From positions 1-64,000 of the IMG/VR virus record IMGVR_UViG_3300045918_000320: a stretch of 64,000 bases of DNA; one strand, given 5' to 3'. Position numbers and translations under genes: made by a program. Positions 37,195 through 60,803 of this stretch are shown here, piece by piece. The stretch comes from a virus. The first letter of the stretch is position 1. Every line of letters begins with the position of its first letter. Under the pieces are notes generated by a model, which saw only the letters and a list, made by a program, of their open reading frames with translations, was not told the DNA's origin and did no database searches.

Positions 37195-38613
37195 TTATTT
37201 TCTTTTTTTAAATGGATTAAATAAATTTTTAAGCTCTTGATGAAATTCTGGTAACTTAGATACTTGATTTGTCTCCCAGAGTGTTCCCGAAGGTAAAAAA
37301 TGACCAGAAGGATACGGATTTTTATTATATTGTACGTTTCTTACAAAATAAATTAAAGCATCTAAAGTATCGAAATGTCCATGCTGAGTATCTCTATCAA
37401 ATCCTGTTCTTTTTGTATTCCATGTAGCGTATTTTAAATGGTCTATTAAATATTTACATTTAGGGCTAATTAAAATAGATTCATTTTGAACTAGTAAACG
37501 TAATTTACTTATTGCGGCTTCTTTATTATCTTTTGCTGTAGGAATAAATACTAAATTATATGGTTCTTGAGATAATTCATTTAGTAAAATTAAATTATTA
37601 TTATCTGCATATCTTAAATAAGGTTTTGCTAACCAAAGTTCAGATTCTTTTTCAGAAATTCCGGCATGAAGGGATCTAGTAGTTACTTTATTTCCTTTAA
37701 CAACGTACTCATCTTCGATTACTACTTTATTTTGTAAAAAATCATAATATCCAAAAATTATTGCTGTAAAATCTTTAAATCCAATATCCATAGCAACATA
37801 ACAATCAAAAAATGCAGGTCTAGGTTGTTCACCTATTATTAATTTCATTTTTTCTTCTGTAGCTTCTGGTACTACTGCTGATTCTTGATCTGTAATCATG
37901 ATATTTAAATATTCACGTTTAAAATCTACAGAATCGTATCCACCAACTTCTTCAGCAAATCCATCAACATCAGTTCTAGTATATCTAGGGCAAGAAAATA
38001 TATCTTTTTTAATCAAAGTTCCATCAAATTCTGCTTTTTTTACAAGCTCCCAATATTCATGTTCCGCAGATTTAGGAAGAGTACTACATAAAAGCATTTT
38101 ACCTTTTGTAGTGTTGAGTTTAGGATACAAAACAGATCTTAATCCGTATTTTAATTCATCCATAAATCCGCACTCGTCAACGATAACTAAAACCGCTTTT
38201 CCACCTCGTTGAGATTCTATTTCTCCAGCATTAAATCCTCCAAGTTCTAGTCTAGCTCCATTTGGAAATAGGTAACAAGATTCTTGAGTTTTATATTCCG
38301 GCTGCATATCTTGAGGACATGTTTTTAATATTTCTAAAAGAGTAGCTCTAATAATTTTTTTACCTTGATTTAATCTAGGAGAAATATAAATTACTGTAGC
38401 ATTTGGAGACTTTAAACATTTCTCTACTGCAATAGTAACTAGAGAAAAAGTTTTACCCATTTGCCGAGAAAATACTGCAATTAAAGTTTTTCTTGGAGAT
38501 TTTGTATAATGTTCGTAAATTTCTTTTTGATTAGCATCGAGTAAGAATTCAGAAATATTTCCAGATTCCCAGATTAATCTTCTAGCTTCTGCTGGAGTAA
38601 TATCTCTAGCCAT
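37195..38613 (-). CDS. terL: Terminase large subunit
   Basis: Walker A SRQMGKT, Walker B VIVDECG, STLP coupling motif, FKREY, nuclease AMDIGFKD and HFDTLDALIY. Confidence 0.92.
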   Translation of the reverse strand: MARDITPAEARRLIWESGNISEFLLDANQKEIYEHYTKSPRKTLIAVFSRQMGKTFSLVTIAVEKCLKSPNATVIYISPRLNQGKKIIRATLLEILKTCPQDMQPEYKTQESCYLFPNGARLELGGFNAGEIESQRGGKAVLVIVDECGFMDELKYGLRSVLYPKLNTTKGKMLLCSTLPKSAEHEYWELVKKAEFDGTLIKKDIFSCPRYTRTDVDGFAEEVGGYDSVDFKREYLNIMITDQESAVVPEATEEKMKLIIGEQPRPAFFDCYVAMDIGFKDFTAIIFGYYDFLQNKVVIEDEYVVKGNKVTTRSLHAGISEKESELWLAKPYLRYADNNNLILLNELSQEPYNLVFIPTAKDNKEAAISKLRLLVQNESILISPKCKYLIDHLKYATWNTKRTGFDRDTQHGHFDTLDALIYFVRNVQYNKNPYPSGHFLPSGTLWETNQVSKLPEFHQELKNLFNPFKKRK

Positions 38614-40884: not shown

Positions 40885-42507
40885 ATGTCAGAATTTGATG
40901 TTTTTTCAAACAAATTTGCTCAGGATATTTTTTTACAAAAGTATTCTATGGATGGACAAGAAACTTGGGAACAAACCGCACGAAGAGTTACAGAAGCTGT
41001 ATGTAATCAGCTAGTAGATAATCAAACAAAAGAAAAAATATTCAAATTAATTAAAGATAGAAAATTTATTCCGGGAGGAAGATATTTATATTCTGCTGGA
41101 AGACCGTTTCACCAAGTAAATAATTGCTTTCTTTTTAGAGCTGAAGATTCTAGAGAAGGATGGGCAGACGCTACTTATAAAGCTACTAGTGCCTTAATGA
41201 CAGGAGGAGGAATTGGATTCGACTATTCCGCTCTTCGACCATCTGGTGCAATTATTAAACGAACTGGAGGAACTTCTACAGGGCCTTTAGCTTTAATGAA
41301 TATTATTAATGAGACAGGTAGATACGTAATGCAAGGTGGACAAAGACGTTCAGCTATTTATGGATCTTTAAACTGGCAACACGGAGATATACAAGCATTT
41401 TTAAAATGTAAAGATCATTCTCCAGAACTACGAGCAGCTAAAGAAAAAGATTTTAATTTTCCTCTACCTCTAGAACTTACAAATATTTCTGTAAACTATG
41501 ATACAGAATTTTTTGTAGCTATTGAAAATGAAGAGCATCCAAAACATAAACAAGCTAAAGAAATATTTATGCAGAATTTTAGACAAGCTGTAACTTCTGC
41601 AGAGCCGGGATTTAGTTTTAATTATTTAAAAGATAATGAAACTTTAAGAAATGCTTGTACTGAGGTGACTAGTGAAGATGATAGTGATAAGTGCAATTTG
41701 GGTACTCTATGGATTAATCGCTTTAGAGATCGTAAGGAGTTTGCCGAAGGTGTCAAATTTTCTACTATTTTTCTACTTTGCGGTGGTATTTATTCTGACG
41801 TACCTAATGACAAAATACGTGAAGTAGGATTAAAAAATAATAGAATTGGATTGGGACTTGGCGGTATGCATGAATGGTTAATGCTTCGTGGAGAAAAATA
41901 CGAAGTTACTCCAGAGTTACACAAATGGTTACGAGTATACGAACAAGAGTCTAATTCAGCAGCATTTATTTATGCAAAAGAATTAGGAGTAGCAGTACCT
42001 AAAGGTATTAGAGCTATAGCACCAACAGGCACTATTGGAATTATTGCTGAAACAACTACAGGAATTGAGCCTTTATTCTGTAAATCATACAAAAGAAGAT
42101 ATTTTAAAGATGGAAAATGGTTAACTCAGTTTGTAATTGATGGATCTGTAAAAAGACTTTTAGATAAAGGTGTAAAGATAGAAGATATACAAGATAGTTA
42201 TGATTTAACTTTCCAACAAAGAGTTAAATTTCAAGCTGATGTTCAAAATTATGTTGACATGGCAATTTCTTCTACTTGTAACATGGCTCCTTGGGGATCT
42301 GATGAAAATAATGAAAAATCTTTAGAAAAAAATGCTAAAATTTTATTAAAATATGCAAAGAGACTACGTGGATTTACAGTATATCCTGATGGATGTCGTG
42401 GTGGGCAGCCTTTAACTAGAGTAGACTTATCCGAAGCTTTAGGTAAAGAAGGGCAAGTATTTGAAGAAAATATGACAGAATGTATAGGCGGTGTTTGCGG
42501 ATTATGA
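40885..42507 (+). CDS. nrdJ: Class II (adenosylcobalamin-dependent) ribonucleotide reductase
   Basis: FIPGGR, NNCF, GGGIG, QGGQRRSA, NACTE, CNLG, IAPTGT, AISST and C-terminal CxxxxC; no beta subunit nearby. Confidence 0.9.
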   Translation: MSEFDVFSNKFAQDIFLQKYSMDGQETWEQTARRVTEAVCNQLVDNQTKEKIFKLIKDRKFIPGGRYLYSAGRPFHQVNNCFLFRAEDSREGWADATYKATSALMTGGGIGFDYSALRPSGAIIKRTGGTSTGPLALMNIINETGRYVMQGGQRRSAIYGSLNWQHGDIQAFLKCKDHSPELRAAKEKDFNFPLPLELTNISVNYDTEFFVAIENEEHPKHKQAKEIFMQNFRQAVTSAEPGFSFNYLKDNETLRNACTEVTSEDDSDKCNLGTLWINRFRDRKEFAEGVKFSTIFLLCGGIYSDVPNDKIREVGLKNNRIGLGLGGMHEWLMLRGEKYEVTPELHKWLRVYEQESNSAAFIYAKELGVAVPKGIRAIAPTGTIGIIAETTTGIEPLFCKSYKRRYFKDGKWLTQFVIDGSVKRLLDKGVKIEDIQDSYDLTFQQRVKFQADVQNYVDMAISSTCNMAPWGSDENNEKSLEKNAKILLKYAKRLRGFTVYPDGCRGGQPLTRVDLSEALGKEGQVFEENMTECIGGVCGL

Positions 42508-46871: not shown

Positions 46872-47057
46872 ATGAGAGTATTAATTGATACAAAAACTGA
46901 TACTACTTTTATACTTGAGTATGATCATATTACTTATATGGCTACACTTACCGATAAAAAAGGTAATGAGTTAAAGTATAGTTATATACAAGAACTACCA
47001 ATAGATTTACACGTATTTCTTGTATTTTTACATAATGAGTTTATAATATTAGACTAG
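46872..47057 (+). CDS. Hypothetical protein
   Basis: 61 aa ORF ending this plus-strand block. Confidence 0.45.
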   Translation: MRVLIDTKTDTTFILEYDHITYMATLTDKKGNELKYSYIQELPIDLHVFLVFLHNEFIILD

Positions 47058-47068
47058 ACGAGAGACTG

Positions 47069-47386
47069 TCACTCTTCTTTAACTTTATTTGTATCTCTAC
47101 GACAGCTCTCGCACTTCCTATGCGAACCTCGCTTTAGAGTAATCATATTCGAACAGCCATCAGCGATACATTGTACCTCCTGTCCAATCGGCTTGTGACC
47201 AAGCTTTAAACGTCTACCAGCATCATACTCGGCCTTATGCTTTAGAGCACAGTCAGGACATCTCCTGCCTGACCATCTCCGGCCTTTATCATCCAAATAT
47301 ATTATGTTAGTACCTTGCTGCCCTATCAGGGATCTAGTATGCCATTCCCGGCAAAAGGGACAAACAACTCCATCTAGATTATTCAT
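47069..47386 (-). CDS. Cys-rich Zn-finger protein under a late promoter
   Basis: CPFC, CPDC, CIADGC, CESC; GGAGG SD; TTAACAACTA motif upstream. Confidence 0.7.
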   Translation of the reverse strand: MNNLDGVVCPFCREWHTRSLIGQQGTNIIYLDDKGRRWSGRRCPDCALKHKAEYDAGRRLKLGHKPIGQEVQCIADGCSNMITLKRGSHRKCESCRRDTNKVKEE

Positions 47387-47394
47387 AGTAGCCT

Positions 47395-47411
47395 CCAGTA
47401 ATAGTTGTTAA
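47395..47411 (-). promoter_or_regulatory. Late promoter motif (TTAACAACTATTACTGG)
   Basis: Exact core. Confidence 0.75.
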
Positions 47412-47483
47412 GCTTACATAATATTGAACCTATAGTTTCGGCTAACCACTTATGCTGCATAGTGTACATAATATAATACTCGT

Positions 47484-47500
47484 TTAACAACTACCTGTGG
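47484..47500 (+). promoter_or_regulatory. Late promoter motif on the plus strand (TTAACAACTACCTGTGG), divergent
   Basis: Exact core; points into a non-coding region. Confidence 0.6.
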
Positions 47501-48040
47501 AATATGAATAATATTCTAGTACCCTTCTCTTAGGAACGTGAAATAGAGCTAACCACTCAGGGACGGTCGGGACACAGGCTACCTAGCCCATAAAACGATT
47601 ACTGGAATGTCGAAGGTCAGAAGACACCAGCGTAAGGCCTAGCAGAAGAATCTTATTTACCAGAACAACTTCAGATGAAACATAAACTAGTAACCCTGAA
47701 GTAGATAATCAAGTAACTTTTACAGGGACTAGAGATCTACTTACCCAAATATGACACACTACATAATATTGAATACATAACTCACTATAGCCTTTATAGG
47801 CTGACTACCCTAAAACATAACTCATACTATAGCCCCAAAGCCTAAAATAGCTGTATTAAGCTCTAATAGAGGCTTAGGACATGATACAAGAATGCTAAAT
47901 GAATAATAGACATTACATATTAGATAGTTATGAGAGTGCATAATATATAGATAAGTGTGTGTAGACATAGATATATATATTTTTATTCAGTTATAGAGTT
48001 ACCTACCCCCCTACCCTGCCAACAATATCTGTCACTTGAC

Positions 48041-48118
48041 TTGGCATGACACTTGCATTGCAATCGATAAGCCAAATAAGAAGTGGCATGCTAATTGTAT
48101 AAGCAATATTGATGCCAA
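48041..48118. promoter_or_regulatory. Four sigma54 (-24/-12)-like motifs in two head-to-head pairs
   Basis: + TTGGCATGACACTTGCA 48041-57; - TTGGCTTATCGATTGCA 48059-75; + GTGGCATGCTAATTGTA 48083-99; - TTGGCATCAATATTGCT 48102-18. Confidence 0.7.
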
Positions 48119-48326
48119 GAATATGTAATCTCTACCCGATAACTACTATTATAAGGTATAGAATATAGGTGCAATATAATTGCAAGTTGCAATATGTAAA
48201 GTAAACTATACATTATTCGACAAGATTTTAGGGTAAAAAATTAAAGATATTCAAATATAAAGCATATTATATAAACGTAAGATTATATTATTCAAACACT
48301 TGTTTTATTTTAACCTACATATATTT

Positions 48327-48392
48327 AACACTGTAATGTTAATATATTCAATATATTGCTAATTTACCATAAATCAACACTATAATGTTAAT
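48327..48392. repeat. 17-bp direct repeat AACACT(G/A)TAATGTTAAT, two copies
   Basis: 48327-48343 and 48376-48392, one mismatch. Confidence 0.7.
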
Positions 48393-48503
48393 CCTACAAT
48401 ATTGAACTATCTATATTAGAAGCTATCAACTTACTTTCAATCAATACAACTACTTTATATTATTCGAATGGTGAAATTATTTTAGAATAATAATAGTTTC
48501 TAG

Positions 48504-48532
48504 TTGCTATTTAATGCATCATGTTATATACT
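48504..48532 (+). promoter_or_regulatory. Sigma70-type early promoter
   Basis: TTGCTA-17 bp-TATACT. Confidence 0.55.
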
Positions 48533-48563
48533 AGTATTAAGAAAACAAACGAAAGAGGTATAT

Positions 48564-48758
48564 ATGAATAATTATGAAACAATACTTACCTTTGAAGAAC
48601 CTACACTTACTATAATTATTTTAGCCGATGGAAATAATGGCTTTAAATATTACTTAGAATCTTTAGATGGTTACCCTTTAACTAACGTCTATAGCTCTGA
48701 AAAAAGAGATTTAATAAGTACTATTGAACAGGCTAAGGCATTATCTAAACAATATTAA
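48564..48758 (+). CDS. Hypothetical early protein
   Basis: GAGG SD before ATG 48564. Confidence 0.55.
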   Translation: MNNYETILTFEEPTLTIIILADGNNGFKYYLESLDGYPLTNVYSSEKRDLISTIEQAKALSKQY

Positions 48759-48770
48759 AAGGGGCATAAA

Positions 48771-48992
48771 ATGCAATTAAAATATAAAAGAGTATCAAGT
48801 TATATTATCGAGACTATTTACGATGATACTACAATTAGAATAGGAAAGGACTATGGCAGTCATGGCAGATGTAAACCATTTTACTATGTAGAGTCAGATA
48901 ATAAAGTTATAATGCATGGCTTTACTACTCAAAAAGAAGCAAAGAAGTATGTTTTAACTCAAATAGGGATAGACTTTAAAAAGGCGGTATAA
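48771..48992 (+). CDS. Hypothetical early protein
   Basis: AAGGGG SD; GFTTQKEAKKY motif. Confidence 0.55.
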   Translation: MQLKYKRVSSYIIETIYDDTTIRIGKDYGSHGRCKPFYYVESDNKVIMHGFTTQKEAKKYVLTQIGIDFKKAV

Positions 48993-48993
48993 T

Positions 48994-49260
48994 ATGAAAT
49001 ATGACACTTGGAAACTAGATAACAATGAAAAATCAACTACTTGCGATTGTTGTGAATGTAAAATTGATAGTAATGATGGAATATTAGCCAAAGGATATAA
49101 AAACAATGATTTAGAACTAATCTGCGAAAAATGTAGTGAAGATTTATTTATATGTGATAGATGTAATTATGCTTGTACTGAAAATGAATGTAGCTATGGA
49201 CAAGATTTATGCGATGACTGTTGTGATTTAATAGCGGAAAGATATTCCGACAATGATTAA
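48994..49260 (+). CDS. Cys-rich Zn-finger protein
   Basis: Four CxxC pairs; YDTWKL N-terminus. Confidence 0.6.
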   Translation: MKYDTWKLDNNEKSTTCDCCECKIDSNDGILAKGYKNNDLELICEKCSEDLFICDRCNYACTENECSYGQDLCDDCCDLIAERYSDND

Positions 49261-49271
49261 AAGGGGGATTT

Positions 49272-49568
49272 ATGGGCTATGTAGCTTTAGACAAAATCTA
49301 TTTAACTAAAAAAGGTAACTTAAGAGCTAAAATATTAATTGAAACTAAAGATAATACGGACAGTCATATTTTAAAGATAACTAATAAAACTAATAGCTTT
49401 ATTTCAGGCAATGGCTATGCTTTTTTTGTAACTTTAATCGATATAGAAAAACAAATTATTAAAATTACTATACAAAATAAAAGCTATAATGCTATAAAAT
49501 TAAATCATTTTATTAATGTAGGGGGCAAAATTACAATTGATACTTTAATAAATGAAACTAATATATAA
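49272..49568 (+). CDS. Hypothetical early protein
   Basis: AAGGGGG SD. Confidence 0.55.
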   Translation: MGYVALDKIYLTKKGNLRAKILIETKDNTDSHILKITNKTNSFISGNGYAFFVTLIDIEKQIIKITIQNKSYNAIKLNHFINVGGKITIDTLINETNI

Positions 49569-49577
49569 AAATAATGT

Positions 49578-49606
49578 TTGACACAATGAATTAAAAATGC
49601 TATTAT
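49578..49606 (+). promoter_or_regulatory. Early sigma70 promoter, copy 1 (TTGACACAATGAATTAA)
   Basis: TTGACA-17 bp-TATTAT. Confidence 0.8.
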
Positions 49607-49638
49607 TAATTATTGAAACAAAAACAAAGGGGAATTAT

Positions 49639-50493
49639 ATGACAAGTTTAAATTTAATTCATTCACCGGCTGACTATTTAACTACAAAATACCATACTTT
49701 AAATACTTTAGATTTAACTTCTCAATTTAACAGAGTGGGCTTTAATATTGCTAATGAAGGAAAATCAACTTTAAGAATTCCGGTTAATCCTGAATTAACT
49801 AGACTATTTAATACTTATACTCAAGAAAAACAATTAGAGCTAATTAATCAATATAATACTAAAATGACAAGATACAATCAGAGATTAGGACATGAAAAGC
49901 ATTTTATTAGATTTCAATCGAATGAATTAAAAAGTACTCGAAAAGATCATGATTTATACTTAAGAGTATCAAATTCGTATGACGGCACAAGTTCTTTAAA
50001 AGTAAGTTTAGACATTTTAAGACTAGTTTGCTTAAATGGAATGGTAGCCCCAAGAAATATTTTCGAATTTTCAGTATCTCATCGCTCTAAAAATATTTAT
50101 AATGATGCAATTGAGGCAAGTTATAAAATATTAGCTAAAAAAGAAATTATTGACAATCAAATTGAGGCAATGACTTCTAAAGTATTAAATACTGATGAGA
50201 AATTGCAACTAGTTGATAATATGCTAAAGTTTAGATTTGATGATAGGGAAATAATTATGGCAGAATCTCAAAAATTAAATTTATTAAGACCGGTAAGACA
50301 AGCGGAAATGAATGATAATTTATATCAAAATTTCAATACAATACAAGAAAAACTAACTAAAGGGGCTAGAATTGCTTTATTAGACGAGAATGGCAATCCT
50401 TTTCATAGTACTGTAAGAGCGGTAAGATCTCAAGTTACTGCAGATAATTTTAATGATCAAGCTTGGCAGTTTGCTACTAGTTTAGTTGGATAA
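49639..50493 (+). CDS. DUF932/DUF945-family protein
   Basis: KHFIRF...NSYDGTSS...RLVCLNGM...H...LYQNFNTIQEKL. Start moved to ATG 49639. Confidence 0.8.
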   Translation: MTSLNLIHSPADYLTTKYHTLNTLDLTSQFNRVGFNIANEGKSTLRIPVNPELTRLFNTYTQEKQLELINQYNTKMTRYNQRLGHEKHFIRFQSNELKSTRKDHDLYLRVSNSYDGTSSLKVSLDILRLVCLNGMVAPRNIFEFSVSHRSKNIYNDAIEASYKILAKKEIIDNQIEAMTSKVLNTDEKLQLVDNMLKFRFDDREIIMAESQKLNLLRPVRQAEMNDNLYQNFNTIQEKLTKGARIALLDENGNPFHSTVRAVRSQVTADNFNDQAWQFATSLVG

Positions 50494-56090: not shown

Positions 56091-56456
56091 ATGTGGAAAA
56101 TTTTGAATAAAAGTAATGGTCAGGAATTAATATTTAAAACTGATAGCGACTTTTGTCAGTGGTATGACAATACACATTTAGCACAATACGAAAGCTCAGT
56201 AGGTGCTATGGATCAAGCTAAAGATCAGCAAAATGGATACTATATAGGTTTAGGATACTATTTAAACTATATTGATATTCCGGATTACGTATCCTATCCG
56301 CCTAAAAAAGAAGAAACTAAAACTTGTCAGCATCCCAGAAAATATTTAAATAAAATTAGCAATAGTTTAGAATTTATGGTTTGTCCGGATTGTAAAGAAG
56401 AAGTAAAAGAAGAGCCAGTAGTTAATAAAAATACTGGATGGGAATGGGGATTTTGA
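56091..56456 (+). CDS. Hypothetical protein with C-terminal Zn ribbon
   Basis: CQH...CPDC; GGGAG SD. Confidence 0.6.
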   Translation: MWKILNKSNGQELIFKTDSDFCQWYDNTHLAQYESSVGAMDQAKDQQNGYYIGLGYYLNYIDIPDYVSYPPKKEETKTCQHPRKYLNKISNSLEFMVCPDCKEEVKEEPVVNKNTGWEWGF

Positions 56457-57304
56457 AACTGTCACACTCTGCTAAAGATCTTTGGAAAACCTGCAAATAC
56501 AAATGGCATTTACATTACCAAAAAAGATATCGCTCTGTCAGAGTTAGCTCTGCATTAGCTTTTGGAAATAGCTTTGACTTAGCTTTAAACGAATTATTGC
56601 TAACTAAAGATTTGCTAAAAGCTGCAGATGTTTTCTGGAATAGCTGGGAAGAATGGAAATATAAACCACTAATTGATTTTTATAAATCTGATTTTAATTC
56701 AGATTTATTATCCAAATCAGATCTAGACGAAATTCAAGCAGTAGAGGCAGATGCCGATCTACAGGATCATTTATTAAATTGGTACTCACTCCGAGCTAAA
56801 GGTCTTAGGATGCTAGCAGAATATGATCTTCAGATCATGCCTAGCCTAGCTGAGATCATTTCTATTCAAGGAGAGTTTGAAATACCTATCCCAAATACAG
56901 AACACACTGTAGGAGGTAAATTAGATTTAATAGCACGTATTGGAGAACACACTTATATTCTAGATAACAAAACTACTAGTCAGCCTTATGCCAAAAATAG
57001 TTGTCAAACTAAAGAGCAGACAGCTTTATATGCAAGAGGAGTGCCAGAATACGATTCTAATGTAGGATTTTTAACTATAAACAAAAAAGATTTTAGAACA
57101 CAAATTTTGTTAGGGCAAGCTCCTAAAGAATTACAAGAATCTGTAATGCAAGATTTTGTATCTATGGCTACAGAAATTGATAATACTACAGAATTTGACA
57201 AGAATAAAAAAGGATGTTATTCTTTTGGTAGCAAGTGTCAGTTTTATTCGCATTGCTGGGGAGAAGGATTCAGTGAAAACATTTATGAAGCTGAAAAAGA
57301 ATAA
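56438..57304 (+). CDS. PD-(D/E)XK exonuclease (Cas4/AddB-like, 4-Cys Fe-S)
   Basis: LSHS...C near the N-terminus, GKLDL...ILDNKT, QTALY, C-terminal CxxxxxxCxxxxxC. Confidence 0.85.
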   Translation: MGMGILKLSHSAKDLWKTCKYKWHLHYQKRYRSVRVSSALAFGNSFDLALNELLLTKDLLKAADVFWNSWEEWKYKPLIDFYKSDFNSDLLSKSDLDEIQAVEADADLQDHLLNWYSLRAKGLRMLAEYDLQIMPSLAEIISIQGEFEIPIPNTEHTVGGKLDLIARIGEHTYILDNKTTSQPYAKNSCQTKEQTALYARGVPEYDSNVGFLTINKKDFRTQILLGQAPKELQESVMQDFVSMATEIDNTTEFDKNKKGCYSFGSKCQFYSHCWGEGFSENIYEAEKE

Positions 57305-59654: not shown

Positions 59655-60803
59655 ATGCAAGTTAAAGATTTAAAGAGAGCTATTCCATATTTATTTAAAA
59701 CTAAAATCACACCACTACTAATTGGACTACACGGAAAAGGTAAAACATCTTTTGTATCTGAGTTAGCTCAGGAAATGGATGCTAATTTACTAGTGGTGCG
59801 TTTAGGTACATTGTCAGATTCAGGAGATCTAATTGGTTTACCGGCTCACCTACAAGATTCTTTAGGTAAAGCTATAGAAACTATTTATGTAGCACCTAGC
59901 TTCTTACCAGTAGCTAGAGAAGGATTTGACAATACCAGAAAGACTGTATTATTTCTAGATGAGATTAACAGATGCCACAAAGATTTAATTCAAGCTATTT
60001 TCCAGTTAGTAGAAAAAGGTGAACAGCTAGGGCCTCATAAATTAATTAATACTCACGTAATTGCTGCAGCTAACCCAGCTACAGACGACTATTCAGTAAT
60101 GGATATTTCAGATAAAGCTTTTACAGACAGATTTTGCCACTTAGCTTTCGAGCCTAGCACTCAAGAATTTTTAGATTATGGTAAAGCTAATTTTAACTCT
60201 CCATATTTAAATTTCTTATCTAATAGACCAGAAATGATTAGAAAAAAGAATGATCTAATTATAATTGATTATATTGATCAGTCTGAAAGATCTGCTGAAA
60301 AAATTTGTAGATTGGAATTAGCAGGACTACCTACAGATTTATTTCTAGAAGTAGCTTCGGGGATAGTAGGTACTGAAGCAGCCTCGGCAGCAGTAGCTTT
60401 TTACTTAGAAAATAATGTTAAAATCTCAGGAAATGATATTATTTATAATTACGAATCTGTAAAAGAAAAAGTATTAAAGCACAATATGCCAGCATTAGCA
60501 CTTGCTATAGACGAAATTGAAAAGATACTTATTGATAAAAAAGAAGAGCCGAACACTCAGCAAGAAATTGATAATTTTATTCAATTCCTAACTGACATTC
60601 CTGCAGATCTTTGTATTGGTACTATTATTAATTTTGCTAAAATTGAATCTTGGTCTAATGATGAACTTGTAATTCAAAACTTTTACGGGTACGATTCTGG
60701 AAAAGGTATTTCAGATACATGTTCTAAATTCCTAGATTATATTCGAGAAATGCGTAAAGCAGGTAAATTAAAATTGCCAGAAGAAAAGAAAGAAGAAAAT
60801 TAA
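59655..60803 (+). CDS. MoxR/dynein-related AAA+ ATPase
   Basis: Walker A GLHGKGKT, DLIGLP, Walker B LFLDEINR, AAANP, DKAFTDRF. Confidence 0.9.
   Translation: MQVKDLKRAIPYLFKTKITPLLIGLHGKGKTSFVSELAQEMDANLLVVRLGTLSDSGDLIGLPAHLQDSLGKAIETIYVAPSFLPVAREGFDNTRKTVLFLDEINRCHKDLIQAIFQLVEKGEQLGPHKLINTHVIAAANPATDDYSVMDISDKAFTDRFCHLAFEPSTQEFLDYGKANFNSPYLNFLSNRPEMIRKKNDLIIIDYIDQSERSAEKICRLELAGLPTDLFLEVASGIVGTEAASAAVAFYLENNVKISGNDIIYNYESVKEKVLKHNMPALALAIDEIEKILIDKKEEPNTQQEIDNFIQFLTDIPADLCIGTIINFAKIESWSNDELVIQNFYGYDSGKGISDTCSKFLDYIREMRKAGKLKLPEEKKEEN

What the first reader, a model, noticed from the sequence alone, without database searches (positions are those of the whole stretch)
48001..48120. Two head-to-head pairs of sigma54-like -24/-12 elements before the early genes
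Within 78 bp are four TGGC-N9-GC/GT elements with exact GG-N10-GC spacing (one has GT), arranged +/-/+/- so each pair forms an imperfect palindrome. Known: sigma54 holoenzyme binds such sites as a stable closed complex that needs an enhancer-binding ATPase. Convergent pairs 1-2 bp apart are unlikely to be productive promoters. Inference: a decoy/sink for host sigma54-RNAP, a protein-bound cap protecting a genome end, or a sensor of host state. They are preceded by a C-rich tract (CCTACCCCCCTACCCTGCC; G-runs on the minus strand) in an otherwise very AT-rich genome.
Basis: partly seen in the sequence, partly recalled or inferred. Interest (0 to 1): 0.72.

Follow-up and report, generated by a model that had tools for sequence, protein, structure and literature searches.

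The report
Paired sigma-54 sites in phage control region
An uncultivated 81-kb pond phage keeps four docking sites for the bacterial sigma-54 transcription factor, arranged as two face-to-face pairs, in its largest gene-free control region; related phages and many unrelated ones keep similar sites although none encodes the activator that sigma-54 needs.

Summary
Four TGGC-N7-TTGY elements lie at 48042(+), 48060(-), 48084(+) and 48103(-). They are 4 of only 5 such matches in the whole 81-kb phage, and a C-rich tract precedes them.

They match the sigma-54 (-24/-12) consensus. Two are strong (48042+, 48103-) and two are weak. TerL-defined relatives carry strict sites at the syntenic place, 5.5-10 kb from the terminase gene, in 6 of 11 cases. 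The closest complete relative repeats the layout: C-run plus two face-to-face pairs.

The face-to-face palindrome occurs in at least 120 other viral contigs, against 1 for a reversed control. It is enriched at divergent gene junctions. Its free positions reproduce the sigma-54 consensus.

No sigma-54 or enhancer-binding activator gene was found in 30 phage records.

Best reading (about 45%): host sigma-54 RNA polymerase promoters that fire in both directions from the control region. Silent docking (decoy or roadblock, about 25%) and a phage-protein operator (about 13%) remain open. The genome-end idea gains no support here.

Earlier notes of this scan describe sigma-54 site arrays in at least 138 other genomes. 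My four literature searches found only a brief mention for phage YuA.

The parts
48002..48020 (+). C-rich tract CCTACCCCCCTACCCTGCC, 21 nt left of the first site
   Evidence: A C6-C9 (or G) run stands next to the site cluster in G001, G002, G003 and G004. G002 holds the same 13-mer CTACCCCCCTACC. A C5+/G5+ run lies within 60 bp of the palindromes in 41 of 120 other viral loci, against 13.9% of background windows. Function unknown.
48042..48056 (+). Sigma-54-like site 1, TGGCATGACACTTGC (strong); predicted start near 48068, rightward
   Evidence: At 23.6 bits it is the best hit in the genome and lies above the maxima of all 20 simulated genomes.
48060..48074 (-). Sigma-54-like site 2, TGGCTTATCGATTGC (weak; T instead of A after TGGC); predicted start near 48048, leftward
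   Evidence: Scores 11.6 bits, rank 4 in the genome. Face to face with site 1, 3 nt between the 15-mers.
48084..48098 (+). Sigma-54-like site 3, TGGCATGCTAATTGT (weak; TTGT at -12); predicted start near 48110, rightward
   Evidence: Scores 10.4 bits, rank 7. TTGT at -12 also occurs in the bound Salmonella pspA and pspG sites (PMC3844500 table, passage seen).
48103..48117 (-). Sigma-54-like site 4, TGGCATCAATATTGC (strong); predicted start near 48091, leftward
   Evidence: Scores 17.7 bits, rank 3. Face to face with site 3, 4 nt between the 15-mers.
47387..48001 (.). Gene-free segment, richer in G+C, left of the sites. It holds two copies of the phage-specific decamer TTAACAACTA that face away from each other (47402-47411 minus, 47484-47493 plus).
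   Evidence: ORF-free gap 47387-48503. G+C is 0.373 against about 0.30 around it. The decamer has 11 copies against 0.5 expected. No RNA family, tRNA or fold signal was found.
48120..48503 (.). AT-rich spacer with short direct repeats between the sites and the first small gene
   Evidence: Repeat families D1, D4 and D5; G+C is 0.276 for 48001-49000. Possible origin or further promoters; not tested.
48505..48758 (+). Sigma-70-like promoter TTGCTA-17-TATACT (48505-48533), Shine-Dalgarno AAAGAGG, and the first small gene (ATG 48564, stop 48758)
   Evidence: This shows that the gene array to the right does not need the sigma-54-like sites for its own start.
47069..47386 (-). 105-aa Cys-rich (zinc-ribbon-like) ORF pointing away from the sites. 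It is the only flanking protein conserved in the closest complete relative.
   Evidence: Its homologue in G001 (36-38% identity) lies on the matching side of G001's site cluster and also points away from it.

Best explanation
The four elements are genuine binding sites for the host's sigma-54 (RpoN) RNA polymerase holoenzyme. They form a small promoter cluster in the phage's main gene-free control region.

The two strong sites (48042 plus, 48103 minus) would start transcription near 48068 rightward and near 48091 leftward. Rightward transcripts would cross the AT-rich spacer toward the small-gene array. Leftward transcripts would cross the C-run and the gene-free segment toward the zinc-ribbon gene.

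Each site overlaps a face-to-face partner, so one bound polymerase excludes its partner. The two directions are then mutually exclusive on one DNA molecule.

Sigma-54 holoenzyme sits as a silent closed complex until an AAA+ enhancer-binding activator opens it, and the phage encodes no such activator. Firing would therefore depend on a host activator, that is, on host state.

What is shown: the motif, its clustering, its conservation in place among relatives, its wide occurrence in other phages, and its orientation bias there. What is inferred: binding by sigma-54, the start points, activator dependence, and mutual exclusion.
For: (1) Four of the 5 genome-wide matches lie in 76 bp, and they take ranks 1, 3, 4 and 7 of a foreign matrix.

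(2) Strict TGGCAY-N5-TTGC sites sit 5.5-10.1 kb from the terminase gene, as in this phage (9.4 kb), in G001 (3 sites), G002 (4), G003 (6 within 2.9 kb, plus degenerate partners), G004 (2), G005 (1) and L011 (1). Flanking proteins and DNA are otherwise not conserved.

(3) G001 repeats the layout: C8 run, two face-to-face pairs, then AAGATATGTA.

(4) In relatives the sites point at flanking genes. G002 33339(+) lies 77 nt before a plus ORF and 33094(-) points toward the minus genes. G004 85920(-) lies about 140 nt before a minus ORF.

(5) Free positions of 279 foreign single sites give the sigma-54 consensus. Bound Salmonella sites show the same variants.

(6) The face-to-face palindrome occurs in at least 120 viral loci against 1 for the reversed control. 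Those loci hold 251 further single sites against 7 control.

(7) Palindrome clusters lie between divergent ORFs in 43 of 93 non-edge cases. Among background ORF pairs the figure is 206 of 1337.

(8) Tandem arrays in intergenic DNA have a co-oriented downstream ORF 26 times against 11, and a divergent upstream ORF 28 times against 6.

(9) Regions around the RNR gene of 39 other viral loci show background level: 5 sites, 5 control, in 581 kb.

(10) There is precedent: phage YuA is said to have a sigma-54-like promoter (PMC10914365, passage seen).
Against: No sigma-54 DNA-binding domain and no convincing enhancer-binding ATPase was found in G000-G004 (only a MoxR-like AAA+ next to a vWA gene). 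None was found in 25 other palindrome-bearing viral records either.

The first small gene has its own sigma-70-like promoter, and the sites lie about 450-500 nt from it. Leftward there are about 660 nt without a gene.

In the wider set most sites lie far from ORF starts: 806 of 1269 are more than 100 nt away.

Sites 16-22 bp apart cannot all hold a holoenzyme at once.

In G003 three sites and in G005 one site are antisense to the ORFs and stand just after a hairpin.

Two of the four sites here are weak.

Five of 11 TerL relatives with 7 kb or more upstream show no site at that place in the sequence held. L002, L005, L544 and L553 have none, and L549 has one only 1.0 kb from TerL.

Host unknown; no RNA data.
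Confidence: 0.45

Rival explanations
1. Silent docking sites. Host sigma-54 holoenzyme (or sigma-54 alone) binds but is never activated. The phage uses the stable closed complex in one of three ways: as a sponge for host sigma-54, as a roadblock or insulator between transcription units (for example against read-through from the phage-specific promoter at 47484+ into the small-gene array), or as a protein cover on this stretch of DNA.
For: Closed complexes are stable and silent without an activator (PMC3844500 passages; PMC4591121 abstract in the listing). No activator gene was found in 30 phage records. The geometry is overlapping and face to face. G/C runs stand beside or downstream of the -12 element in relatives; they would resist melting. 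The G003 and G005 sites are antisense and stand directly after hairpins at gene ends. Leaders are long. The single plus-strand copy of the phage-specific decamer points at the cluster.
Against: Sites packed 16-22 bp apart cannot all be occupied, which is wasteful for a sponge. Orientation is biased toward downstream genes (26 against 11) and toward divergent junctions, which fits promoters. Only four sites per genome here, two of them weak. A roadblock by a sigma-54 closed complex is, to my knowledge (recalled), not demonstrated.
Confidence: 0.25
2. Operators or iterons for a phage-encoded DNA-binding protein (repressor, replication initiator, partition or packaging protein) whose half-site happens to resemble the sigma-54 consensus.
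For: The pairs are palindromic and 42-43 bp apart, about four helical turns. In other contigs there are tandem arrays of 18-19 bp period, too tight for polymerase. In about 30 of 120 other loci the palindromes stand directly before a small AT-hook protein gene followed by terminase and portal genes. A Cys-rich ORF next to the region is conserved in G001.
Against: Inner spacing varies: 3 and 4 nt here, and 3-7 nt in 161 palindromes. Single, tandem and back-to-back sites are about as common. The same motif, down to its free positions, recurs in contigs of 30-68% G+C that share no gene near the site. A universal host factor explains this more simply. In this phage the terminase gene is 9.4 kb away. 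The Cys-rich ORF was not found in the held parts of G002-G005.
Confidence: 0.13
3. Part of a replication origin or of the packaging/terminal region. Transcription from the sites, or proteins bound to them, would activate an origin in the adjacent AT-rich repeat-bearing spacer, or would mark the physical genome end.
For: The sites lie in the largest gene-free region but one, beside an AT-rich spacer with direct repeats. Palindromes in other contigs lie in large gaps (median 612 bp) at module junctions, and 32 of 125 clusters lie at locus edges.
Against: No read-start data are available. Contigs of two runs cross the site without a break (contigs cannot show ends). The G003 contig begins and ends in poly-C, and the G004 overlap starts beside a C8 run. 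Contig ends beside the sites are therefore explained by assembly breaks at homopolymers. The record's 127-bp end repeat lies elsewhere, at 1/81165.
Confidence: 0.12
4. Chance clustering or a plain hairpin or cruciform with no sequence-specific reader.
For: Two of the four sites are individually weak. Single hits of about 20 bits occur in 2 of 20 simulated genomes.
Against: Four of 5 matches lie in 76 bp. The cluster is conserved in relatives. The arms agree only at consensus positions: in 161 foreign palindromes the inner 5 nt agree at 0-2 positions in 140 cases. So there is no extended stem.
Confidence: 0.03

Closest known systems
Bacterial sigma-54 (RpoN) -24/-12 promoters, for example the Salmonella sites bound in ChIP (prpB, glnK, hypA, pspA, pspG; PMC3844500, passages and table seen)
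   Same: The sequence is the same: TGGCA(C/T)-N5-TTGC(A/T) with GG and GC ten bases apart. This includes the TGGCAT variant and the TTGT variant of pspA and pspG. The free positions also agree.
   Different: Four sites overlap as two face-to-face pairs. No enhancer-binding activator gene and no recognisable enhancer is present. The distance to the next genes is long. The sites lie in a virus that encodes neither sigma-54 nor an activator.
Sigma-54-like promoter of Pseudomonas phage YuA (Ceyssens et al. 2008, as cited in PMC10914365; passage seen)
   Same: A phage without its own RNA polymerase that is reported to use a sigma-54-type promoter beside sigma-70-type ones.
   Different: YuA has one mapped sigma-54-like promoter region. 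The passage I read describes no paired or clustered arrangement and no family-wide conservation. I did not read the original paper.
Silent or intragenic sigma-54 binding sites of E. coli and Salmonella (PMC4591121, title and start of abstract in the search listing; PMC3844500 passages)
   Same: Holoenzyme bound in a transcriptionally inactive state at consensus sites, some of them antisense. This is the basis of the docking rival.
   Different: Those sites are scattered single sites inside genes. Here they form a conserved intergenic cluster of paired sites.
Clusters of strong host-polymerase promoters at the head of phage early regions (T7 A1-A3; recalled, from no call) and symmetric bidirectional sigma-70 promoters (recalled)
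   Same: Several polymerase sites are packed into the control region at the head of a gene array, and symmetry gives two directions.
   Different: Those use sigma-70, need no activator, and are tandem or back to back. They are not face to face and overlapping.

Membership tests
Sigma-54 (RpoN)-dependent promoter | GG and GC (TGC) elements exactly ten bases apart (-24/-12) | tested here: met
   Three of 4 sites have GG-N10-GC. The fourth has GT, as do the bound pspA and pspG sites.
Sigma-54 (RpoN)-dependent promoter | Extended consensus (Y)TGGCA(C/T)(G/A)-N4-TTGC(A/T) | tested here: met
   Fully met by 48042(+) and 48103(-). There is one departure each in 48060(-) and 48084(+). Matrix ranks are 1, 3, 4 and 7 in the genome.
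Sigma-54 (RpoN)-dependent promoter | Bound by sigma-54 holoenzyme as a closed complex | not testable with these tools
   Needs a band-shift or footprint experiment.
Sigma-54 (RpoN)-dependent promoter | Activated by an AAA+ enhancer-binding protein, usually from an enhancer 80-150 bp upstream | tested here: inconclusive
   No PF00158 match of activator type in G000-G004 (only a MoxR-like AAA+), and none in 25 other records. A host activator cannot be examined. The palindrome TGCAATATAATTGCA at 48170-48184 is a possible enhancer but is not conserved in G001.
Sigma-54 (RpoN)-dependent promoter | Transcript starts about 12 nt downstream of the GC | not testable with these tools
   No RNA run was listed.
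Sigma-54 (RpoN)-dependent promoter | The host encodes rpoN | not testable with these tools
   Host unknown. The nearest cultured phage by terminase and capsid (26-28% identity) infects Silvanigrella. The RNR search gave no usable host name.
Sigma-54 (RpoN)-dependent promoter | Points at a gene at a plausible leader distance | tested here: inconclusive
   Here the leaders are about 450-500 nt rightward, to a gene with its own promoter, and about 660 nt leftward. In relatives the distances are 77 and about 140 nt.
Operator of a dimeric phage repressor | Fixed spacing of the two half-sites | tested here: not met
   The spacing is 3 against 4 nt here, and 3-7 nt in 161 foreign palindromes.
Operator of a dimeric phage repressor | Sites occur as inverted pairs only | tested here: not met
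   Single sites exist in relatives. There are 251 single sites in palindrome loci and 91 loci with tandem pairs.
Operator of a dimeric phage repressor | A cognate DNA-binding gene nearby, conserved together with the sites | tested here: inconclusive
   A Cys-rich 105-aa ORF is conserved in G001 only. No gene family is shared by all palindrome loci.
Phage genome terminus, cos or pac region | Read starts pile up at the place, or the assembly ends there for a physical reason | tested here: inconclusive
   Contigs of two runs cross the place. Contig ends of relatives coincide with poly-C runs. Raw reads were not available.
Phage genome terminus, cos or pac region | Lies next to the terminase genes | tested here: not met
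   The terminase large subunit lies at 37195-38613, which is 9.4 kb away.
Hairpin or cruciform | The arms are complementary throughout | tested here: not met
   Ten of 15 positions agree in each pair, and only at consensus positions. Foreign palindromes show the same.

The most novel reading that the evidence does not exclude
The sites are never used to start RNA. On this reading the phage lineage, and many unrelated uncultivated phages that also lack any activator gene, borrows the host's sigma-54 holoenzyme because it sits on DNA silently and stably. The packed, overlapping consensus sites would then act as a DNA-level trap or barrier. They could drain sigma-54 from host promoters as the genome replicates, or insulate the control region from read-through. 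No phage protein would be spent on either task.
Probability: 0.25. Interest if true: 0.85.

Novelty: new variant of a known kind. Interest (0 to 1): 0.6.

Why it matters
Sigma-54 is the one bacterial sigma factor that cannot start transcription without an ATP-driven activator. A phage that relies on it ties part of its programme to a host signal. A phage that only docks it gains a free, stable DNA-bound protein.

Conserved clusters of consensus sigma-54 sites in phage control regions, with no activator gene, pose a clear and testable question: who opens these complexes, if anyone?

The four literature searches I ran turned up only the YuA mention and a putative sigma-54-like phage protein. They turned up no description of such clusters. 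Supplements were closed, and subscription journals are not searched.

The motif is compact and easy to test with purified holoenzyme and a promiscuous activator.

Tried and rejected
T7-type promoters. The strings ACTCACTATAG-like at 47780 and 47820 looked like single-subunit polymerase promoters. There are only two copies, and the phage has no RNA polymerase gene among the ORFs scanned. I dropped this idea.

RNA genes. There were no Rfam hits at gathering score and no tRNA in the window. Folds of 47495-48025(+) and 47387-48048(-) are no better than shuffles, with z of -0.12 and -0.89.

Relatives by DNA or by neighbouring proteins.
- DNA similarity of 47000-49500 to 50,697 phage records: no match.
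- DUF932 protein as an anchor: none of 8 candidate stretches is a relative.
- Zinc-ribbon ORF alignment as an anchor: only G001.
- RNR as an anchor: 39 loci, but RNR is not syntenic with the sites. Those loci show background level, 5 sites against 5 control.
- Five whole records that share RNR have 0-3 scattered sites and no cluster.
- Terminase in metagenome contigs: 12 loci, mostly the same phages as in IMG/VR.

Host. The nearest cultured phage infects Silvanigrella, but at 26-28% identity only, and it has a single site. The RNR search listed 120 of 8000 hits. The only organism-like name was one MAG label, so the host stays unknown.

Leaderless test. A peak at 14 nt between the -12 C and the next ATG comes from the ATGCCA of the partner site. 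It is an artefact, and I did not use it.

Genome scan. At least 120 loci matched. They are dominated by one repeat family of saprophytic Leptospira and by perfect hairpins, so the scan does not serve as a host survey.

Expression. No RNA holder was listed.

Contigs of two DNA runs cross the sites without break, variant or indel. This cannot show ends.

Only the back-to-back count (107) and the tandem count (91) are complete.

Gene calls in foreign loci are crude (longest ORFs of 60-70 aa or more). All orientation counts carry that error. Forty-eight of 88 tandem arrays fell inside such ORFs and were left out of the orientation count.
Full report
WHAT THE DNA IS. The window is the first 64 kb of an 81,292-bp virus record whose ends overlap by 127 bp. 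IMG/VR labels this overlap 'direct terminal repeats'. It therefore says nothing about the physical ends. G+C is 31%.

The genes are arranged as follows:
- Structural genes run leftward from about 39 kb: terminase large subunit at 37195-38613, portal, major head protein and tail proteins.
- A rightward arm holds ribonucleotide reductase, dUTPase and an HNH endonuclease.
- From 48.5 kb onward come many small genes and then DUF932, GP88, a PD-(D/E)XK nuclease, ERF, a MoxR-like AAA+ with a vWA partner, a DnaB-type helicase, ThyX, a family A DNA polymerase, a dNMP kinase and a ClpP-like protease.

No RNA polymerase gene was seen among these, so the phage must use the host enzyme. The finding lies in the ORF-free gap 47387-48503 (1,117 bp), the second largest in the genome.

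THE OBSERVATION. The four elements, their strands, their spacing and the C-rich tract are as described.
- TGGC-N7-TTGY occurs 5 times in the whole record, and 4 of these lie within 76 bp.
- The fifth (57032, minus) lies antisense inside the nuclease gene.
- GG-N10-GC alone is too common to mean anything: 198 matches.

I built a matrix from 259 single sites of other viral contigs. It ranks the four sites 1st, 3rd, 4th and 7th in the genome, at 23.6, 17.7, 11.6 and 10.4 bits. Simulated genomes reach 10.3-21.9 bits. So each pair has one strong and one weak member, and the strong ones are the outer two. They face inward.

The matrix has TGGC and TTGC fixed by how its sites were picked. It therefore tests only the other positions.

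RELATIVES. The terminase protein found 14 viral loci and 12 metagenome loci, mostly the same phages. In the five long records, strict sites cluster as follows:

| Record | Sites |
|---|---|
| G001 | 78703+, 78758+, 78778- |
| G002 | 33094-, 33137+, 33173+, 33339+ |
| G003 | 53+, 97+, 1293-, 1823-, 2457-, 2832+, plus degenerate partners |
| G004 | 20-, 142- |
| G005 | 63834- |

The looser pattern against its reversed control gave 5:4, 11:1, 11:1, 7:2 and 3:1 for G001 to G005.

By my arithmetic, the clusters lie 9.0, 8.6, 10.1, 5.5 and 9.3 kb from the terminase gene, on the same side as here (9.4 kb). L011 has one site at 7.1 kb.

Misses:
- L002 (7.2 kb upstream held), L005 (9.0 kb), L544 and L553 (10 kb each) have none in the sequence held.
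- L549 has one site, at 1.0 kb.
- Seven shorter loci do not reach far enough.

So 6 of 11 relatives with 7 kb or more show sites at the place.

Around the sites almost nothing else is conserved. Of all ORFs between 39 and 56 kb, only three have a tblastn match in the held parts of the relatives. Only the 105-aa Cys-rich ORF lies beside the cluster, and only in G001.

G001, read in the same orientation, has ACCACCCCCCCC, then a face-to-face pair, 20 nt, a second pair with one degenerate arm, and then AAGATATGTA. This is the same order as in this phage. All flanks together give yTTGGCAY(R)nnnnTTGCA.

BEYOND THE FAMILY. The same pattern read backwards matched 1.

The 161 palindromes come from contigs of 30-68% G+C. 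Their inner gaps are 3 to 7 nt (19, 61, 26, 19 and 36 cases). The five inner bases of the two arms agree at 0-2 positions in 140 of 161. They are therefore two protein-reading half-sites and not stems.

The same 976,512 bp hold 251 further single sites against 7 reversed controls. Back-to-back pairs (107 loci) and tandem pairs (91 loci, 58 of 101 with a 3-nt gap) are also far above the control. Face-to-face is thus one common arrangement of a motif that clusters in every orientation.

Where only TGGC and TTGC were required, the free positions of 279 single sites are:
- T 64% before TGGC;
- A 88%, then C or T 90%, then G or A 87%, then A or G 70%;
- A or T 83% after TTGC.

This is the sigma-54 consensus as I recall it from Barrios et al. 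1999 (recalled, from no call). It also agrees with the bound Salmonella sites printed in PMC3844500.

As negative controls, 39 loci around the RNR gene of other phages hold 5 sites and 5 controls in 581 kb. Five whole records, three of them complete phages of about 85 kb, hold 0-3 scattered sites.

WHERE THE PALINDROMES SIT. With crude ORF calls, 125 palindrome clusters fall as follows: between divergent ORFs 43 times, tandem 34, convergent 16, and at a locus edge 32. All neighbouring ORF pairs in the same loci are 206 divergent, 926 tandem and 205 convergent. The gap between flanking ORFs has a median of 612 bp.

Many loci show small leftward genes, then the palindromes, then a rightward block. 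That block holds a small AT-hook protein, an M15 peptidase, terminase and portal.

Tandem arrays have a direction. In intergenic DNA they have a co-oriented downstream ORF in 26 cases against 11, and a divergent upstream ORF in 28 against 6. Forty-eight of 88 fell inside crude ORFs, some of them coding repeats, and were set aside.

Single sites in intergenic DNA are co-oriented with the next ORF 77 times against 33.

Against simple promoters, 806 of 1269 sites are more than 100 nt from the next possible start.

NO ACTIVATOR. Neither the sigma-54 DNA-binding domain nor the sigma-54 interaction domain gave a credible hit in G000-G004. The only signal is the MoxR-like AAA+ at 59655-60803, which pairs with a vWA-like gene. 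In the control genomes that family model also matches archaea and other organisms, so such weak matches carry no meaning. Twenty-five further palindrome-bearing records, 9 of them at least 90% complete, gave none.

THE NEIGHBOURHOOD HERE.
- To the left, the phage-specific decamer TTAACAACTA has 11 copies against 0.5 expected, ten of them on the minus strand. Nine of these lie in the structural arm.
- The tenth minus copy lies at 47402, just before the Cys-rich ORF. The single plus-strand copy, at 47484, points through 520 gene-free bases at the C-run and the sites. This decamer was a lead from note e1-6125198.
- To the right lie 390 AT-rich bases with short direct repeats.
- Then comes TTGCTA-17-TATACT, a Shine-Dalgarno sequence and the first small gene at 48564.

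So the small-gene array has a sigma-70-type promoter of its own.

THE C-RUN. A run of five or more C or G lies within 60 bp of the palindromes in 41 of 120 loci, against 13.9% of control windows. Such a run stands next to the cluster in G001-G004.

In G003 the contig both begins and ends in poly-C. In G004 the end overlap starts beside a C8 run. Contig ends beside such sites are thus most simply assembly breaks at homopolymers. This weakens the argument that the sites mark genome ends.

In three G003 modules the G-run closes the stem of a hairpin at the end of a gene. The sigma-54-like site stands just beyond it on the opposite strand, followed by a sigma-70-like promoter for the next gene. 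This layout suits a barrier better than a promoter.

READING. The motif is that of sigma-54, and a host factor best explains its identity across unrelated phages. Positional conservation, divergent junctions and orientation bias favour real promoters that fire outward in both directions. I put this at 0.45.

The face-to-face overlap means that the predicted starts fall inside the partner site. These are 48068 and 48110 rightward, and 48048 and 48091 leftward, counted 12 nt from the C of the -12 element. The two directions therefore compete.

Several facts keep silent docking alive at 0.25: the absence of any activator gene, the long leaders, the G/C runs, the very tight packing elsewhere and the antisense sites of G003 and G005. 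A phage-protein operator (0.13), an origin or terminal role (0.12) and chance (0.03) follow.

LITERATURE. Four searches gave three relevant items:
- YuA, said to depend on sigma-70 and sigma-54 and to have one sigma-54-like promoter region (PMC10914365, passage seen);
- a putative sigma-54-like protein of a Pectobacterium phage (PMC7693777, passages seen);
- general work on sigma-54 regulons.

I found no description of conserved sigma-54 site clusters in phage control regions. Subscription journals and supplements were not searched.

EARLIER NOTES OF THIS SCAN. The index holds 150 notes in at least 138 genomes on sigma-54-type sites in phages. One describes paired copies between two gene arms with no activator (e1-3539627), which my results match. 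One reads an array as a genome end (e1-5838169), which my poly-C observation qualifies. These are unchecked AI notes and I do not count them as evidence.

Noticed in passing
L185-L303 (genome contigs; for example L196 1204-6943): Saprophytic Leptospira genomes (L. yanagawae, L. vanthielii, L. soteropolitanensis, L. abararensis and others) carry a conserved repeat of about 90 bp at intervals of about 0.9-1.7 kb. Its core is a face-to-face sigma-54-like palindrome, TGGCAT-N5-TTGC-N4-GCAA-N5-ATGCCA, whose inner bases are not complementary. It is flanked by GTTAGGGAC and a short hairpin. The layout looks like a cassette array; many small contigs end in the repeat.
   Followed up: partly
window 47484-48001: The only plus-strand copy of the phage-specific decamer TTAACAACTA (11 copies in all, otherwise before leftward genes) points into about 520 gene-free bases of higher G+C that end at the C-run. 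No ORF, no Rfam hit and no fold signal was found.
   Followed up: partly
window 57032-57046 (minus): An isolated strong sigma-54-like site, TGGCACTCCTCTTGC (20.6 bits, rank 2 in the genome), lies antisense inside the PD-(D/E)XK nuclease gene 56438-57304. Single hits of this strength occur in 2 of 20 simulated genomes.
   Followed up: no
L052 (G003) 1250-2850: Three repeated modules share one layout: a small plus-strand gene, a GC-stemmed hairpin, a minus-strand sigma-54-like site, an A-tract, and a conserved sigma-70-like promoter CCGATAAGTTATTATAAG before the next gene.
   Followed up: partly
L073, L077, L086, L092, L098, L103, L130, L162, L167, L180: A family of contigs with about 46% G+C has 2-4 palindromes in tandem with a period of 46-47 bp. 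They stand directly before a small AT-hook protein gene, an M15 peptidase, terminase and portal. Thymidylate synthase ThyX and small genes lie on the other side.
   Followed up: partly
window 49420-50427: In one of the two DNA runs that hold this phage, the contigs break around the DUF932 gene. One contig skips 643 bases (49624-50268) and has 46 other letters there. This looks like strain variation in that gene.
   Followed up: no
window 40885-42507: The class I ribonucleotide reductase large subunit is 75-97% identical to proteins on many metagenome contigs of 75-87 kb and also of 110-175 kb. Some copies are longer and carry LAGLIDADG or intein domains. The gene is not syntenic with the sigma-54-like sites in other phages.
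   Followed up: partly
window 48205-48467: Three copies of a TATA(C/T)ATTATTC(G/A)A-like repeat and two copies of AACACTRTAATGTTAAT lie in the AT-rich spacer between the sites and the first small gene. They could be iterons or further promoters.
   Followed up: no
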